Shown here piece by piece: positions 1 to 4,617 of a stretch of DNA of 4,617 bases. The translations under genes and the position numbers were made by a program. The stretch spans positions 1-4,617 of the IMG/VR virus record IMGVR_UViG_2529292874_000013. One strand, written 5' to 3'. Every line of letters starts with the position of its first letter. Positions within the stretch are counted from its first letter, which is position 1. The stretch comes from a virus. Taxonomy: Duplodnaviria > Heunggongvirae > Uroviricota > Caudoviricetes. Under the pieces are notes generated by a model, which made no database searches, was not told the origin of the DNA, and saw only the letters and a program-made list of their open reading frames with translations.

Positions 1-1477
1 CGAGCATACGGAATTCAACCGTCTGCTGGGGCTGGGGAATGAACTGCTTCAGCAGCGTCAGGGACTGGTGAATGTACCGTTACGGCTGCCGCAGGCCACC
101 CTGGATGATAAACAGCAGAGTGCCCTGACAAAAACAGAGCGTGAGCTGGCCCTGTCCAGACTGAAAGGGGAAGAAAAAGAGCGTGTCCGACTGGGGTATG
201 CGGCGGATGACCTCGGTTTTGTGGGTGATCCGTATCAGGAGGCGAGACAACGTTATATCAGTAATGCCCTGGAAGCCTGGCGCAATAACGAGGCGAATAA
301 ACCCAAATCCCGGGGTGGAAAATCAGAGACGGAAAAAGCGGAAGACAGTTTTTCCCGGCTGCTGAAGCAGCAGAAAGAGCAACTGGCACTGGTGGGGCAG
401 AATACAGAGCTGGCGAAGCTGAAATACCAGACAGCGCTGGGTGAACTGAAAACCCTGACGGAGATGCAGAAGCAGGAACTGCTGCGTAACGCGACCCTGA
501 TTGACCAGCAAAAAATCCGGGAACAGTTGCGATCCCGGGAAGAGACACTGAAGAATGAGAATGCGGCTGCGCGTGCGTCGAATGATGCTGAACTGCTGGG
601 GTACGGGCAGGGGGAGCGAGCCAGAGAACGCATGCGGGAGTTGCAGCAGATCCGCGACAGCTTCCGCCAGAAGGATGCGGACCTTCAGTCTCAGTATCAG
701 ACCGGGGATATCAGTGAGGATTTTTACAGACAGGCTCTGGCACAGAACGCGCAGTATCTGAGCGAACGCCTTAAGGACCAGGCAGTCTTTTATGCCGAAT
801 CGGATGTGCAGCGTGCGGACTGGCAGAAAGGGCTGCAGGAGGGATTCAGTAACTGGGTGGATAATGCGTCCGATTACGCCTCACAGGCAGCACAGCTGGC
901 GACGGAGGGTATCTCAGGGATGGTGAATAACATCACGGAGATGCTGAACGGAAATAAAGTGGAATGGCGCAGCTGGGCCTCATCAGTGCTGCAGGAAATA
1001 TCAAAAGTTCTTATGAATGCCGCGATTGTCAACGGAATTAAGACGGCGGCAAACGGTATGTCCGGTGCGGGAGGATTTCTCGGCAGCATTGGTGACTGGC
1101 TGGGCGGAGCGGTGGCCAATGCAAAAGGCGGCGTGTATACCTCGGCAAACCTGAGCGCGTACAGCAACAGCATTGTGGACACGCCCACGTACTTTGCGTT
1201 TGCAAAAGGGGCCGGGCTGATGGGGGAAGCCGGACCTGAAGCTATTATGCCCCTGACCCGGGCGGCGGATGGCTCGCTGGGCGTACGCGCCGTGGGCAGT
1301 ATGAACGGCAGTGCTGGTCTGGTGTATTCCCCGGTCTACCACATCGCCATTCAGAATGACGGGGCTAACGGACAGATAGGGCCGGAGGCGGCAGGCAGTC
1401 TTGTGCAGCTGATTGACCAGCGGGTGCAGGCGGTGATGCTGTCCATGCGACGTGACGGAGGAATGCTGAGTGGCTGA
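1..1477 (+). CDS. H: Tail length tape measure protein (lambda gpH-like), C-terminal portion; the 5' end lies upstream of the window
   Basis: The frame is open from the window edge (no stop in codons 2..67) to TGA at 1475-1477; the GTG at 68 used by the ORF track is only the first in-frame start inside the window. The N-terminal part is charged and Q/E/K/R-rich (coiled-coil-like), and the C-terminal part is Gly/Ala-rich, as is typical of tape measure proteins. It sits immediately upstream of M-L-K-I-J in lambda-like synteny, and its stop overlaps the M start. Confidence 0.85.
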   Translation, partial: EHTEFNRLLGLGNELLQQRQGLVNVPLRLPQATLDDKQQSALTKTERELALSRLKGEEKERVRLGYAADDLGFVGDPYQEARQRYISNALEAWRNNEANKPKSRGGKSETEKAEDSFSRLLKQQKEQLALVGQNTELAKLKYQTALGELKTLTEMQKQELLRNATLIDQQKIREQLRSREETLKNENAAARASNDAELLGYGQGERARERMRELQQIRDSFRQKDADLQSQYQTGDISEDFYRQALAQNAQYLSERLKDQAVFYAESDVQRADWQKGLQEGFSNWVDNASDYASQAAQLATEGISGMVNNITEMLNGNKVEWRSWASSVLQEISKVLMNAAIVNGIKTAANGMSGAGGFLGSIGDWLGGAVANAKGGVYTSANLSAYSNSIVDTPTYFAFAKGAGLMGEAGPEAIMPLTRAADGSLGVRAVGSMNGSAGLVYSPVYHIAIQNDGANGQIGPEAAGSLVQLIDQRVQAVMLSMRRDGGMLSG

Positions 1478-2518: not shown

Positions 2519-3262
2519 ATGACACAGACTGAATCAGCGATTCTGGTGCATGCCCGGCGGTGTGCGCCTGCGGAGTCGTGCGGCTTCGTGATAGGCACCC
2601 CGGAGGGCGAACGGTACCAGCCCTGCGTGAATATCTCCGCAGAGCCGGAGGCGTATTTTCGTATTGCGCCGGAAGACTGGCTGCAGGCAGAGATGCAGGG
2701 GGAGATTGTGGCGCTGGTTCACAGCCACCCTGGTGGTCTGCCCTGGCTGAGCGAGGCCGACCGGCGGCTGCAGATAAAGAGTGCACTGTCCTGGTGGCTG
2801 GTCTGCCGGGGGGAAATTCATAAATTCCGCTGTGTGCCACATCTGACAGGACGGCGCTTTGAGCACGGGGTGACGGACTGTTACACGCTGTTCCGGGATG
2901 CCTACCATCTGGCGGGAATTGATATGCCGGATTTTGAGCGTGAGGATGACTGGTGGCGTAACGGTCAGAACCTTTACCTGGACAATATGGCGGTCACAGG
3001 CTTTTACCGGGTGCCCCTGTCCTCTGCACAGGCGGGCGATATCCTGCTGTGCTGCTTTGGCGCATCGGTGGCCAATCATGCCGCCATATACTGCGGCAAC
3101 GGTGAACTGCTTCACCATCTGCCTGAACAACTGAGTAAACGGGAGAGGTATTCCGAAAAATGGCAACGACGAACGCATTCAGCCTGGCGTCACCGCCACT
3201 GGCACGTATCTGCCTTCACGGGGATTTGCAACGATTTGGCCGCCGCCTCAGCCTGTATGTGA
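2519..3262 (+). CDS. K: Tail tip assembly protein K (lambda gpK-like) with an N-terminal JAMM/MPN metalloprotease-like domain and a C-terminal NlpC/P60 cysteine peptidase-like domain
   Basis: ATG at 2519 starts MTQTESAILVHARRCAPAESCGF..., 10 nt after the L stop (2506-2508). A JAMM-type motif HSHPGGLPWLSEAD (H-x-H-x7-S-x2-D) is present, followed by an NlpC/P60-like Cys (GVTDCYTLF) and His (NHAAIY). The 2258..2518 part of the six-frame ORF is an upstream read-through that overlaps L in another frame. Confidence 0.88.
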   Translation: MTQTESAILVHARRCAPAESCGFVIGTPEGERYQPCVNISAEPEAYFRIAPEDWLQAEMQGEIVALVHSHPGGLPWLSEADRRLQIKSALSWWLVCRGEIHKFRCVPHLTGRRFEHGVTDCYTLFRDAYHLAGIDMPDFEREDDWWRNGQNLYLDNMAVTGFYRVPLSSAQAGDILLCCFGASVANHAAIYCGNGELLHHLPEQLSKRERYSEKWQRRTHSAWRHRHWHVSAFTGICNDLAAASACM

Positions 3263-3837
3263 ACACGGCAGCGGAAGCCATCCGGGCGCTGTCGTTACAG
3301 GTGCCGGGATTCCGCCGTCAGATGAACGAAGGCTGGTACCAGATACGTATTCGCGGTGAGGACACGGCACCGGAGGCGGTGTACGCCCGTCTTCACGAAC
3401 CTCTGGGTGAGGGGGCGGTCATCCATATTGTGCCGCGACTGGCCGGAGCCGGAAAGGGCGGACTGCAGATTGTGCTGGGGGCAGCAGCCATCGTGGGCTC
3501 TTTCTTCACCGCCGGCGCAACGATGGCGTTGTGGGGCGCAGCCCTGAGTGCCGGAGGGCTGACTGCCACCACGATGCTGTTCTCACTGGGTGCCAGCATG
3601 ATACTGGGCGGTGTGGCCCAGATGCTGGCACCGAAGGCAAAAACACCGGATTACCGCGCAACGGATAACGGTAAACAGAACACGTATTTTTCGTCACTGG
3701 ATAACATGATTGCCCAGGGGAACCCGATGCCGGTGCCTTATGGTGAAATGCTGGTTGGTTCACGACGGATATCCCAGGACATCAGCACCCGTGATGAGGG
3801 CGGAGACGGGAAAGTGGTGGTTATCGGGCGGGGATGA
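3160..3837 (+). CDS. I: Tail tip assembly protein I (lambda gpI-like), 225 aa
   Basis: The translation (MATTNAFSLASPPLARICLHGDLQRFGRR...AVIHIVPRLAGAGKGG...GNPMPVPYGEMLVGSRRISQDISTRDEGGDGKVVVIGRG) matches my recollection of gpI, with an N-terminal ubiquitin-like region and a C-terminal Gly/Ala-rich hydrophobic stretch. The start overlaps the K 3' end by 103 nt in a different frame. A GGAGAGG Shine-Dalgarno lies at 3142-3148. Confidence 0.9.
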   Translation: MATTNAFSLASPPLARICLHGDLQRFGRRLSLYVNTAAEAIRALSLQVPGFRRQMNEGWYQIRIRGEDTAPEAVYARLHEPLGEGAVIHIVPRLAGAGKGGLQIVLGAAAIVGSFFTAGATMALWGAALSAGGLTATTMLFSLGASMILGGVAQMLAPKAKTPDYRATDNGKQNTYFSSLDNMIAQGNPMPVPYGEMLVGSRRISQDISTRDEGGDGKVVVIGRG

Positions 3838-3875
3838 AAATAAAAAAATCCCGCAGAGTTAGCGGAGCTGCGGGA
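3837..3875 (-). terminator. Inverted repeat (stem 3849-3856 / 3868-3875, tcccgcag / ctgcggga) whose T-tract is on the minus strand (the + strand A-run at 3837-3848); a possible minus-strand intrinsic terminator or RNA structure
   Basis: An 8-bp perfect stem with an 11-nt loop is read directly from the sequence. On the minus strand the hairpin is followed by atttttttatttt. On the + strand it overlaps the Shine-Dalgarno of the small ORF at 3883. Confidence 0.35.
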
Positions 3876-3882
3876 GAGAACG

Positions 3883-4002
3883 ATGAAGATTAACGTTATG
3901 GAGTTATTTTTCAGGCATCAAAAAAGTAATGCAGCGTCATTATTGCGGCTACAGGCAATTGCCGGAAATGTGAAGAGTTTCAGAAATTTTATTCCGTCAT
4001 GA
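3883..4002 (+). CDS. Hypothetical small protein, 39 aa (MKINVMELFFRHQKSNAASLLRLQAIAGNVKSFRNFIPS), in the AT-rich segment between I and J
   Basis: ATG at 3883 is preceded by GGGAGAG (3872-3878) at a 4-6 nt spacing, and the ORF ends at TGA 4000-4002, immediately before a strong hairpin plus T-tract terminator. The region is visibly AT-rich compared with the flanking GC-rich tail genes. I recognise no homolog, and the ORF is too short for the sequence alone to establish that it is coding. Confidence 0.3.
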   Translation: MKINVMELFFRHQKSNAASLLRLQAIAGNVKSFRNFIPS

Positions 4003-4004
4003 CA

Positions 4005-4035
4005 CAGGCACCCTCCGGGGTGCCTGTTGTTTTCT
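4005..4035 (+). terminator. Rho-independent terminator: 9-bp GC-rich stem (caggcaccc / gggtgcctg), 4-nt loop (tccg), then T-tract ttgttttct
   Basis: Stem 4005-4013 pairs perfectly with 4018-4026, the loop is 4014-4017, and the T-rich run 4027-4035 follows directly. It sits 3 nt after the small ORF stop and about 40 nt upstream of the J start. Confidence 0.65.
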
Positions 4036-4061
4036 GGCATAAACAGATTCAGACATCAGAC

Positions 4062-4072
4062 AGGAGAGGGGG
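4062..4072 (+). promoter_or_regulatory. Purine-rich Shine-Dalgarno region (aggagaggggg) for J
   Basis: AGGAG and a G-run lie 6-11 nt upstream of the GTG at 4078, which opens the MGKGGGKGHTP-type N-terminus. Confidence 0.5.
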
Positions 4073-4077
4073 ACAGA

Positions 4078-4617
4078 GTGGGTAAAGGGGGCGGCAAGGG
4101 GCACACGCCGGTAGAGGCAAAGGACAATCTTAAGTCCACGCAGATGATGAGCGTGATTGATGCCATTGGTGAAGGGCCGATTGAAGGTCCGGTGAAGGGG
4201 CTGCAGAGTATCTGGTGAACAAAACCCCGCTGACGGACACGGACGGTAATCCTGTGATACATGGTGTGACAGCGGTCTGGCGCGCCGGGGAGCAGGAGCA
4301 GACACCACCTGAAGGCTTTGAGTCCTCCGGAGCTGAAACCGCACTGGGCGTGGAAGTGACGAAGGCAAAGCCGGTGACGCGCACCATTACGTCCGCGAAC
4401 ATTGACCGCCTGCGGGTCACCTTCGGGGTGCAGTCACTGTTGGAGACCACCTCAAAGGGCGACCGTAATCCCTCTTCTGTCCGACTGCTGATTCAGTTGC
4501 AGCGTAACGGTAACTGGGTGACGGAAAAGGATGTCACCATTAACGGCAAGACCACCTCGCAGTTTCTGGCGTCGGTGATTCTGGGTAATCTGCCTCCCCG
4601 TCCTTTAACATCCGGAT
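4078..4617 (+). pseudogene. J: Host specificity / tail tip central fibre protein J (lambda gpJ-like), N-terminal fragment running off the window, with an apparent frameshift near 4209-4215; either a pseudogene or a sequencing error
   Basis: From GTG 4078 the translation is (M)GKGGGKGHTPVEAKDNLKSTQMMSVIDAIGEGPIEGPVKGLQSI, then a stop at 4216-4218. A second frame from about 4212 continues LVNKTPLTDTDGNPVIHGVTAVWRAGEQEQTPPEGFESSGAETALGVEV...TSANIDRLRVTFGVQSLLETTSKGDRNPSSVRLLIQLQRNGNWVTEKDVTINGKTTSQFLASVILGNLPPRP to the window end. Both parts match my recollection of the lambda gpJ N-terminus (MGKGSSKGHTP...KDNLKSTQ...EGPIEGPV...AGEQEQTPPEGFESSG...SANIDRL...KGDRNPS). Restoring one base in atc(c)tgg rejoins the frames. 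Confidence 0.8.

What the first reader, a model, noticed from the sequence alone, without database searches (positions are those of the whole stretch)
4005..4035. Strong intrinsic terminator placed immediately upstream of J inside the late tail operon
A 9-bp GC-rich perfect stem, tetraloop and T-tract sit about 40 nt before the J start. In lambdoid phages late-operon transcription is made terminator-resistant by Q-type antitermination, so such a terminator would be read through during lytic growth but would stop any unmodified polymerase transcribing the insert in a lysogen. That is how moron cassettes are typically insulated. Its position also means J translation here relies on its own Shine-Dalgarno rather than the tight coupling seen at H/M, M/L and K/I.
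Basis: partly seen in the sequence, partly recalled or inferred. Interest (0 to 1): 0.45.

Follow-up and report, generated by a model that had tools for sequence, protein, structure and literature searches.

The report
Terminator hairpin just before gene J
The hairpin is a real, conserved transcription terminator at the I/J junction of a lambda-like tail operon, an ordinary feature also seen in lambda and HK97-like phages, and the DNA beside it encodes not a small protein but an already published small RNA (EcOnc22/PasB) on the opposite strand.

Summary
Window 4004-4027 is a 10-bp stem (7 G-C pairs) with a UCCG loop, followed by TGTTTTCT, 43 nt before the J start codon (GTG, 4078). Only 1 of 1000 dinucleotide shuffles gives an equal. 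Relatives keep the stem, including one C-G to U-A double change.

The 240-bp I-J spacer is extra DNA, but its cargo is not the 39-codon plus-strand ORF, which is open only in this variant. The cargo is a minus-strand, Hfq-dependent small RNA, about 3932 (or 3917) to 3842. It has its own -10 element and its own terminator (3874-3850 plus U7). It matches the published northern probes for EcOnc22/23/24 (EHEC Sakai) and PasB (EPEC E2348/69).

The plus-strand terminator does not belong to that cassette:
- Lambda, phi458, HK75 and a Klebsiella phage carry unrelated hairpin-plus-T-tract elements at the same I/J position without any insert. The HK75 record annotates its copy as a terminator.
- Arrays of two or three sRNA modules still have only one such terminator, always next to J.

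Most likely it stops unmodified RNA polymerase before J and is read through by Q-modified polymerase. That role is inferred, not shown. I rate it an ordinary feature: a new member of a known kind, of low interest.

The parts
4004..4027 (+). Terminator stem-loop: 10-bp stem ACAGGCACCC/GGGTGCCTGT with a UCCG loop
   Evidence: It is kept in 60 of 80 related loci. Pair 4011-4020 changes C-G to U-A in 5 of 18 distinct variants, with U-G intermediates, and 98.3% of cells are paired.
4028..4035 (+). T-tract TGTTTTCT. The predicted RNA 3' end is about 4033-4035.
   Evidence: The tract is TGTTTTT, CGTTTTT or TGTTTTC in all hairpin-bearing variants.
3842..3932 (-). Small RNA gene EcOnc22/23/24 = PasB. 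It is Hfq-dependent and antisense to the tail operon. The 3' end is at 3842. The 5' end is 3932 by the promoter prediction, or about 3917 by the PasB annotation carried over from E2348/69.
   Evidence: The Tree 2014 northern probe GGGAGAGAACGATGAAGATTAAC... equals plus strand 3872-3894. The CRAC peak maps to about 3916-3856 on the minus strand after coordinate correction. The RNA folds at -20.3 kcal/mol, z = -4.1.
3850..3874 (-). The small RNA's own terminator hairpin (CCCGCAG...CTGCGGG, 11-nt loop), followed on the minus strand by A-U7 (3849, 3848-3842)
   Evidence: The stem is nearly invariant (all but one variant, JLK-2012) and the loop varies across phages.
3883..3894 (-). Conserved single-stranded GUUAAUCUUCAU just upstream of the small RNA's terminator. 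It is the likely seed. Its complement supplies the ATG of the spurious 39-codon ORF.
   Evidence: Mostly conserved in alignments A1 and A2; the ATG complement is ACG in three variants. Zhu et al. [quoted passage not shown]
3939..3944 (-). Candidate -10 element of the small RNA promoter. It reads AATAAT here and TATAAT, TATCAT or GATAAT in relatives.
   Evidence: It is the only promoter candidate at the same position in all 8 variants scanned (top minus-strand score in 6 of 8). E2348/69 has TTCACA-16-TATAAT at 13.6 bits.
3969..3984 (.). Invariant box TGTGA-N6-TCAGA within an A/T-rich block upstream of the small RNA promoter. It could be a CRP-like site or an UP element.
   Evidence: One match with one mismatch to TGTGA-N6-TCACA, against 0.13 expected. 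The half-sites are invariant and the spacer varies. The box recurs with nearly every sRNA module in tandem arrays (one L185 copy differs just 3' of the TCAGA half-site).
3883..4002 (+). 39-codon ORF, rejected as a gene
3160..3837 (+). Tail assembly gene I. Its stop codon ends 4 nt before the small RNA's 3' end.
4061..4080 (+). J ribosome-binding site (AGGAGAGGGGG) and GTG start codon at 4078

Best explanation
Window 4004-4035 is a canonical Rho-independent terminator on the late-operon strand, sitting at the I/J junction of a lambda-like tail operon. That junction carries a terminator hairpin of unrelated sequence in several lambda-like and HK97-like phages.

In this phage family, DNA has been inserted between the stop codon of I and that terminator. 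The insert is one reverse-oriented small-RNA gene (EcOnc22/PasB) with its own promoter and its own terminator. In some relatives there are two or three such modules.

The plus-strand terminator therefore marks the J-proximal edge of the untranslated spacer. It would stop any unmodified RNA polymerase moving in the late direction before it enters J. Such polymerase could come from spurious starts in the tail genes or from divergent starts at the small RNA promoter. Q-modified polymerase from PR' would read through it during lytic growth.

Shown here: the sequence, the fold, the rarity by chance, conservation with pair-preserving changes, the conservation of position across phages, and the identity of the neighbouring small RNA.

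Inferred: that the element actually terminates, that Q overrides it, and what is gained by shielding J.
For: - Structure and statistics.
- Eighteen distinct variants keep 98.3% of cells paired, against 34-49% when the partner is slid. There is one compensatory pair, and the other varying pairs change mainly by wobble-compatible single substitutions.
- The loop is replaced (TCCG, TCAG, CACG, CGGTGA) while the stem and T-tract stay.
- In the ASU11-type variant a different G+C-rich hairpin plus T-run takes its place.
- Some phages share the spacer through the T-tract and then switch to a different J leader, so the terminator travels with the junction and not with one J allele.
- Lambda (AAACCGCC-TGCG-GGCGGTTT + TGTCATTT), phi458, HK75 (GGCCACC-TTCG-GGTGGCC + TTTTTT, annotated 'terminator' in the record) and Klebsiella phage KpLi5 all have such an element 10-25 nt before J with no insert.
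- Arrays of two or three sRNA modules have a single plus-strand terminator, always next to J.
- The tail genes are nearly silent in the E2348/69 lysogen (base mean 2-17) while PasB is at 482-1082.
- Lambdoid late transcription from PR' depends on Q antitermination at intrinsic terminators (PMC7547250).
Against: - I could not reach any transcript 3'-end data for this site.
- Six of the ten stem pairs never vary and so say nothing either way. The covariation rests on one pair, and the shuffle control is only suggestive (4-8 of 500).
- The element is dispensable. Seven of 80 close relatives carry a sodC moron at the junction with no plus-strand terminator within 120 nt of J. Morganella and Mannheimia phages have no I-J gap at all.
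- In the lysogen I and J are both almost silent, so there is little sense transcription to stop.
Confidence: 0.6

Rival explanations
1. The hairpin acts mainly as an RNA stability or processing element in the read-through late mRNA. It would protect the 3' end of the upstream M-L-K-I segment from exonucleases, or mark a processing site that uncouples J from upstream genes. Stopping polymerase would be secondary.
For: - It lies inside an operon whose normal polymerase ignores terminators, so in lytic growth it exists only as RNA structure.
- Position-conserved hairpins before J occur in lambda, phi458, HK75 and KpLi5.
- It is very stable, at -23 kcal/mol.
Against: - A stability hairpin needs no T-tract, yet the T-tract is kept in every variant and in the unrelated hairpins of lambda, HK75, KpLi5 and ASU11.
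- There are no processing data.
Confidence: 0.15
2. The terminator is the 3' end of a separate sense-strand small RNA. This RNA would start at a weak promoter diverging from the PasB promoter, or be cut from the 3' end of the I message. It would use the U-rich stretch, hairpin and U-tail as an Hfq-binding module, and might be partly antisense to PasB.
For: - AAAUUUUAUUCC followed by a hairpin and a U-tail resembles the Hfq-binding module of sRNAs (Ishikawa 2012, cited in PMC4104026).
- Block 3985-4003 is almost invariant.
- Weak plus-strand promoter-like sites exist: GAAATT at 3983-3988, 6-8 bits, and TGTGAAAAT in other variants.
- About 1% of Hfq-CRAC reads from this intergenic region fall on the other strand.
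Against: - The plus-strand promoter candidates are weak and sit at different places in different variants. The consensus scan finds none.
- A start at about 3995 would give a 40-nt RNA that is almost all hairpin.
- Neither Hfq CRAC nor RIL-seq reported an sRNA on this strand.
- Lambda and HK75 have the terminator with only 20-35 nt of upstream spacer.
Confidence: 0.12
3. One reading: the terminator closes a plus-strand, protein-coding moron (the 39-codon ORF 3883-4002) and insulates it in the lysogen.
For: In this window the ORF's stop codon (4000-4002) lies one base before the stem.
Against: - The frame is open for only 18-19 codons in 10 of 12 other variants.
- The ATG is ACG in 1720a-02 and Stx2_499.
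- The middle of the spacer has indels that are not multiples of three.
- The ORF has no Pfam match and no conserved plus-strand promoter.
- Its first four codons are the complement of the conserved seed of the minus-strand sRNA.
Confidence: 0.03
4. The hairpin is a chance palindrome with no function.
For: None beyond the fact that the lenient scan finds terminator-like sites by chance (3.7 expected per window).
Against: - Only 1 of 1000 shuffles gives a stem of this quality.
- It is conserved in hundreds of prophages with pair-preserving changes.
- Analogous elements sit at the same junction in unrelated phages.
Confidence: 0.01

Closest known systems
I/J-junction terminator hairpins of lambda, phi458, HK75 (HK97-like) and Klebsiella phage KpLi5
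   Same: Same strand and same place: after the stop codon of I and 10-45 nt before the J start. Same anatomy: a G+C-rich stem of 7-10 bp, a 4-nt loop and a T-run. The HK75 record labels its copy 'terminator'.
   Different: The sequences are unrelated (AAACCGCC..., GGCCACC..., against ACAGGCACCC...). Those phages have a gap of only 52-62 nt and no small RNA. Here the gap is 240 nt and holds a reverse-strand gene.
Intrinsic terminators of lambdoid operons that antiterminated polymerase reads through (tR' and downstream late-operon terminators)
   Same: A canonical hairpin plus U-tract on the strand transcribed from PR'. It is expected to stop unmodified polymerase and to be ignored by Q-modified polymerase (PMC7547250).
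   Different: tR' lies directly downstream of PR' and its 3' end has been mapped by Term-seq. This element lies about 20 kb downstream and has no mapped 3' end that I could find.
EcOnc22/23/24 (Tree et al. 2014) = PasB (Pearl Mizrahi et al. 2021; Zhu, Shabalina and Storz 2026)
   Same: This is the neighbouring element in the same spacer. It matches by probe sequence, strand, position between I and J, size (about 85 and 83 nt) and terminator.
   Different: It is on the opposite strand and is a different element from the finding. Its own terminator is at 3874-3842. The finding's hairpin lies about 70 nt upstream of the sRNA's predicted start.
Morons as defined for HK97/HK022 (Juhala et al. 2000, cited in PMC4104026): extra DNA between genes that abut in relatives, often with its own promoter and terminator
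   Same: The spacer is extra DNA at a junction that is short in lambda. It carries an autonomous promoter-gene-terminator unit expressed in the lysogen.
   Different: That unit is on the minus strand and encodes an RNA. The plus-strand terminator is not part of it.
Reverse-oriented gene embedded in a Q-dependent late operon ('noncontiguous operon', taiEcA in phi80; PMC11364771)
   Same: A gene antisense to late transcription, expressed in the lysogen, whose expression falls when Q is supplied.
   Different: That case is a protein-coding defence gene near the packaging module. No terminator role was described there, and no such effect has been tested for PasB.

Membership tests
Rho-independent (intrinsic) terminator | A G+C-rich stem of about 5-14 bp with a short loop | tested here: met
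   10 bp, 7 G-C pairs, a 4-nt loop, -23.1 kcal/mol.
Rho-independent (intrinsic) terminator | A U-rich tract immediately 3' of the stem on the transcribed strand | tested here: met
   TGTTTTCT follows directly. It is conserved as TGTTTTT or CGTTTTT in relatives. The opposite strand has no such tract.
Rho-independent (intrinsic) terminator | The structure is maintained in evolution | tested here: met
   98.3% of cells are paired. One pair shows C-G to U-A via U-G, the loops are swapped, and an unrelated hairpin substitutes in the ASU11 type. Support is modest because 6 of the 10 pairs never vary.
Rho-independent (intrinsic) terminator | Transcript 3' ends map in the U-tract; termination occurs in vitro | not testable with these tools
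   Term-seq data exist (GSE143631, PMC7547250) but are not held here.
   The 39-codon ORF is open only in this variant and has no Pfam family.
   The consensus scan finds none. The weight-matrix scan gives only weak candidates that are not conserved in position.
   It is present without an insert in lambda, phi458, HK75 and KpLi5. There is one per junction whether there are 1, 2 or 3 modules. It is absent with the sodC insert.
EcOnc22/PasB small RNA (applies to 3842-3932 on the minus strand, not to the hairpin) | Sequence identity with the RNAs detected experimentally | tested here: met
   The EcOnc22/23/24 probe equals plus strand 3872-3894. The spacer is 100% identical to Sakai Sp15. The PasB probe matches the homologous left hairpin of E2348/69 PP6.
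EcOnc22/PasB small RNA (applies to 3842-3932 on the minus strand, not to the hairpin) | Lies between tail genes I and J, antisense to them, and ends at its own intrinsic terminator | tested here: met
EcOnc22/PasB small RNA (applies to 3842-3932 on the minus strand, not to the hairpin) | Hfq binding and Hfq-dependent stability | not testable with these tools
   Taken from the papers: destabilised in delta-hfq, and log2 fold change -6.8 in delta-hfq.
Hfq-binding sRNA 3' module (considered for the plus-strand hairpin) | A U-rich stretch, a terminal hairpin and a poly-U tail on an RNA that is actually expressed | tested here: inconclusive
   The sequence features are present. About 1% of CRAC reads fall on the other strand. 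No conserved promoter is found.
Any Rfam family | A covariance-model match | tested here: not met
   No relevant hit in the window at E <= 1. The same search finds AgvB, AsxR and STnc100 at their own loci.

The most novel reading that the evidence does not exclude
The terminator and the reverse-oriented PasB/EcOnc22 gene may together form a lysogeny-to-lysis switch. In the lysogen, sense transcription across the spacer is absent or is stopped at 4035, so PasB accumulates. After induction, Q-modified polymerases cross the PasB gene head-on and read through the terminator. This would shut PasB off by transcriptional interference and by producing a perfect antisense RNA. The host-directed small RNA would then be silenced exactly when late genes switch on. 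A weaker form of the idea is that the terminator defines a short sense-strand RNA that titrates PasB.
Probability: 0.15. Interest if true: 0.5.

Novelty: new member of a known kind. Interest (0 to 1): 0.22.

Why it matters
For annotation, the 240-bp I-J spacer occurs in 802 of 5426 complete E. coli genomes, with up to 9 copies per genome, and carries no annotation in any of the 25 records listed. It should be labelled as a small-RNA gene (EcOnc22/PasB) on the strand opposite the tail genes, plus a late-strand terminator. It should not be labelled as a hypothetical small protein, as some phage records do.

For biology, the I/J junction turns out to be a recurrent landing site for reverse-oriented cargo expressed in the lysogen. 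That cargo includes one to three small-RNA modules, or sodC. The landing site lies next to a terminator position that is older than the cargo. Beyond that, the terminator itself is an ordinary element.

Tried and rejected
- **Rfam scan of the window.** It found nothing relevant, so the spacer is not AgvB, AsxR, Esr41 or STnc100.
- **AgvB/AsxR as candidates.** I first suspected them, but they lie at the PR' moron site and not here.
- **HnrS (EcOnc10-12).** I considered it because it also reaches nine copies per genome. It sits in Sp9, Sp10 and Sp12 at other coordinates.
- **Old genome coordinates.** Read against the current genome version, the EcOnc22 coordinates place the Hfq peak on the finding's hairpin (minus strand). 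This was an artefact of a shift of +135 to +142 bp between NC_002695.1 and NC_002695.2. I measured the shift on AsxR, AgvB1 and the two StxS 3' ends and confirmed the correction with the probe sequence.
- **Plus-strand promoters in the spacer.** I looked for one that would make the terminator the end of a cassette. None is conserved.
- **TTCACA at 3974-3969 as the small RNA's -35 element.** It lies 24 nt from the -10 element in this variant, so I dropped it.
- **Literature on a lambda I-J terminator.** The searches found nothing specific.
- **Term-seq tables of Sy et al. 2020.** They are not held in the library.

Full report
**1. What the window is**

The window covers the tail region H'-M-L-K-I-spacer-J' of a lambda-like prophage of the E. 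coli O157:H7 / O55:H7 group. Over its whole length the closest complete genome is 97.9% identical. The 240-bp I-J spacer together with the first bases of J (3820-4100) is 100% identical to VT1-Sakai (prophage Sp15), CP-1639 and Stx2a_WGPS6. The spacer occurs in 802 of 5426 complete E. coli genomes, with a median of 3 and a maximum of 9 copies per genome. None of the 25 records listed annotates it.

**2. The observation**

- The stem is 4004-4013 paired with 4018-4027: 10 pairs, 7 of them G-C.
- The loop is UCCG and the tail is TGTTTTCT (4028-4035).
- The J start codon GTG is at 4078, behind AGGAGAGGGGG.
- The RNA folds at -23.1 kcal/mol, z = -5.5 against shuffles.
- A stem of this quality with a T-tract turns up in 1 of 1000 dinucleotide shuffles of the window.
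- On the minus strand the hairpin is followed by GUCAUGAC, so it works in one direction only.

**3. What else is in the spacer**

A second hairpin lies directly after the stop codon of I: CCCGCAG, an 11-nt loop, CTGCGGG, at 3850-3874. On the minus strand it is followed by A-U7-A-U4. It is therefore a minus-strand terminator.

Alignments of diverged phages show four things:
- Both stems are conserved: the J-proximal one varies only by pair-preserving changes, and the I-proximal one is invariant in all but one variant (JLK-2012).
- The loops vary.
- The middle of the spacer varies, with indels that are not multiples of three.
- There are conserved blocks at 3883-3894 and at 3966-4003.

The 39-codon plus-strand ORF (3883-4002) is not a gene. 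Its ATG is ACG in two phages. In 10 of 12 other variants the frame is open for only 18-19 codons. It has no Pfam match.

**4. Identity of the cargo**

Table S2 of Tree et al. 2014 (PMC4104026) lists EcOnc22 (Sp15), EcOnc23 (Sp14) and EcOnc24 (Sp11). These are Hfq-CRAC peaks on the genome plus strand. The northern band is about 85 nt and is destabilised without hfq. In all three prophages the tail operon is on the genome minus strand. The RNA is therefore antisense to the tail genes, which is the window's minus strand.

The published coordinates refer to NC_002695.1. I measured the offset to the current version in three ways:
- AsxR and AgvB1, comparing Rfam hits with the published peaks.
- The StxS 3' ends at 1,266,460 and 2,925,944 (PMC7547250), compared with the tR' terminators in the current sequence.
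- The result is +135 to +142 bp on both sides of the locus.

After correction, the EcOnc22 peak falls at about window 3916-3856 on the minus strand. The published northern probe settles the matter. GGGAGAGAACGATGAAGATTAAC... is the plus strand of 3872-3894, so it detects the minus-strand RNA.

PasB of EPEC E2348/69 (PMC8550237, Table S6) is the same family. It is 83 nt, on the minus strand, and lies between E2348C_1436 (I) and E2348C_1437 (J). Its probe AATCCCGCAGTGATCGCGGAGCT is the left hairpin of that variant. Its 3' end maps to window 3842, the last U of the U7 run.

A weight-matrix scan puts the only conserved promoter on the minus strand. The -10 element is at 3944-3939. It reads AATAAT here, TATAAT, TATCAT or GATAAT elsewhere, and TTCACA-16-TATAAT in E2348/69. 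This predicts a start near 3932, which gives a 91-nt RNA. The PasB annotation carried over to the window gives about 3917. The difference may reflect 5' processing and remains open.

A 2021 review lists the targets as unknown (PMC7873438). The 2026 preprint by Zhu, Shabalina and Storz describes PasB as embedded in an operon of phage structural genes, with its seed just upstream of the terminator.

**5. Where the plus-strand terminator belongs**

Five observations separate it from the small-RNA cassette.

(a) In IMG/VR prophages with two or three tandem sRNA modules, every module has its own minus-strand terminator and -10 element, and nearly every one the TGTGA-N6-TCAGA box. There is still only one plus-strand hairpin, and it is next to J.

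(b) Some phages share the spacer through the T-tract and then switch to another J leader.

(c) Lambda has a 60-nt I-J gap containing AAACCGCC-TGCG-GGCGGTTT followed by TGTCATTT. Phage phi458 has the same with a different loop. HK75 and Klebsiella phage KpLi5 have GGCCACC-loop-GGTGGCC followed by T6-7, about 10 nt before J. The HK75 record annotates its copy as a terminator. None of these phages has a small-RNA insert.

(d) Of 80 loci with a closely related J:
- 60 carry this hairpin.
- 13 carry a different hairpin plus T-run (the ASU11 type).
- 7 carry a minus-strand Cu,Zn superoxide dismutase gene at the junction, with no plus-strand terminator within 120 nt of J.

(e) Morganella and Mannheimia phages have no gap at all.

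A late-strand terminator at the I/J junction is therefore a recurrent but dispensable feature of enterobacterial lambda-like and HK97-like tail operons. The small-RNA modules have been inserted upstream of it.

**6. Is the structure under selection?**

Eighteen distinct variants give 98.3% paired cells, against 34-49% when the partner column is slid. Pair 4011-4020 changes from C-G to U-A in five variants, with U-G intermediates. Three further pairs change on one side (two of them only to wobble pairs; the third also has two loop-replacement variants counted as unpaired). Loops are replaced outright. Six pairs never vary, and the shuffle control is only suggestive (4-8 of 500). The sequence-level evidence is therefore modest. 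The substitution of unrelated hairpins at the same position is the stronger argument.

**7. Mechanism**

The best-supported reading is a plain intrinsic terminator for polymerase moving in the late direction. Established lambda biology says that Q-modified polymerase from PR' ignores such sites (PMC7547250). The element would then matter only for unmodified polymerase: spurious starts in the tail genes, escape from tR', or divergent starts at the small RNA promoter.

The long untranslated spacer would cause polarity in an ordinary operon. Here it is tolerable because the late polymerase is antiterminated; this step is inference.

I could not show that the element terminates. In the E2348/69 lysogen both I and J are almost silent (base mean 5 and 15) while PasB is at 482-1082. 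The amount of transcription it has to stop is therefore small.

The rivals are:
- an mRNA stability or processing hairpin;
- the 3' end of an undescribed sense-strand small RNA;
- chance.

They are scored in their own section.

**8. Verdict**

The insert's cargo is a known small RNA on the other strand. As a kind of element it is ordinary and annotated elsewhere (HK75). I found no paper that describes this particular hairpin, so I rate it a new member of a known kind, with low interest.

Noticed in passing
window 3842-3932, minus strand: The spacer encodes the published Hfq-dependent small RNA EcOnc22/23/24 = PasB, antisense to the tail operon, with its own terminator at 3874-3842. It is unannotated in every E. 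coli record listed and is not in Rfam.
   Followed up: yes
window 3969-3984: An invariant box TGTGA-N6-TCAGA (9 of 10 matches to the CRP core) lies in an A/T-rich block upstream of the small RNA promoter. The half-sites are invariant and the spacer varies. It recurs with nearly every sRNA module. PasB is reported to be higher in LB than in glucose-containing DMEM, which would fit CRP control. An UP element is an equally good reading.
   Followed up: partly
window 3917 versus 3932, minus strand: The conserved -10 element predicts a start about 15 nt upstream of the 5' end annotated for PasB in E2348/69 (83 nt). The EHEC northern band (about 85 nt) lies between the two predictions (76 and 91 nt). 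The 5' end may be processed at the U-rich stretch.
   Followed up: partly
L144 9800-10200; L185 4400-5100 (also L200, L220): Some prophages carry tandem arrays of two or three different reverse-strand sRNA modules between I and J. Each has its own terminator and -10 element, and nearly all the box. One module type has a different body and terminator (CTCCCG...CGGGAG).
   Followed up: partly
L270 about 540-1100, minus strand (7 of 80 related loci): The same I/J junction holds a reverse-oriented Cu,Zn superoxide dismutase gene (Pfam Sod_Cu, E = 4e-32) beside a remnant of the sRNA terminator. There is no plus-strand terminator before J. The junction is a hot spot for reverse-oriented cargo.
   Followed up: partly
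L261 163-190 (lambda 15462-15489); L345 382-405 (HK75): Lambda itself has a terminator-like hairpin plus T-run in its 60-nt I-J gap. HK75 has one that the record annotates as a terminator. I found no paper that discusses the lambda element.
   Followed up: partly
window 1972/1973, 4210/4211 and about 4599: Compared with the closest genome, the window lacks single bases in L (GGCAATAT to GGAATAT) and in J (TATTCTGG to TATCTGG, plus one more near 4599). This breaks both reading frames: L splits into 1811-2014 and 2011-2508, and J stops at 4218. These are either real pseudogenes in a decaying prophage or sequencing errors.
   Followed up: partly
window 4047-4061; L018, L294, L297: The J leader between the terminator and the ribosome-binding site contains a 7-nt repeat (CAGACAT). 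It has two copies here and four in Stx2 phage 1717 and some IMG/VR prophages.
   Followed up: no
L020 500-560 (ASU11 type; 13 of 80 loci): In this variant the hairpin is replaced by AAACCCCGGTATC-TGC-TGATACCGGGGTTT, flanked by A-rich and T-rich runs. It looks like a two-way terminator. The phage record calls a hypothetical ORF that runs through the region.
   Followed up: no
Sakai genome coordinates (L010, L013-L015): Coordinates in Tree 2014 and Sy 2020 refer to NC_002695.1 and are offset by about +135 to +142 bp from NC_002695.2 at 1.27, 1.94 and 2.93 Mb. Using them unshifted places EcOnc22 on the wrong hairpin.
   Followed up: yes
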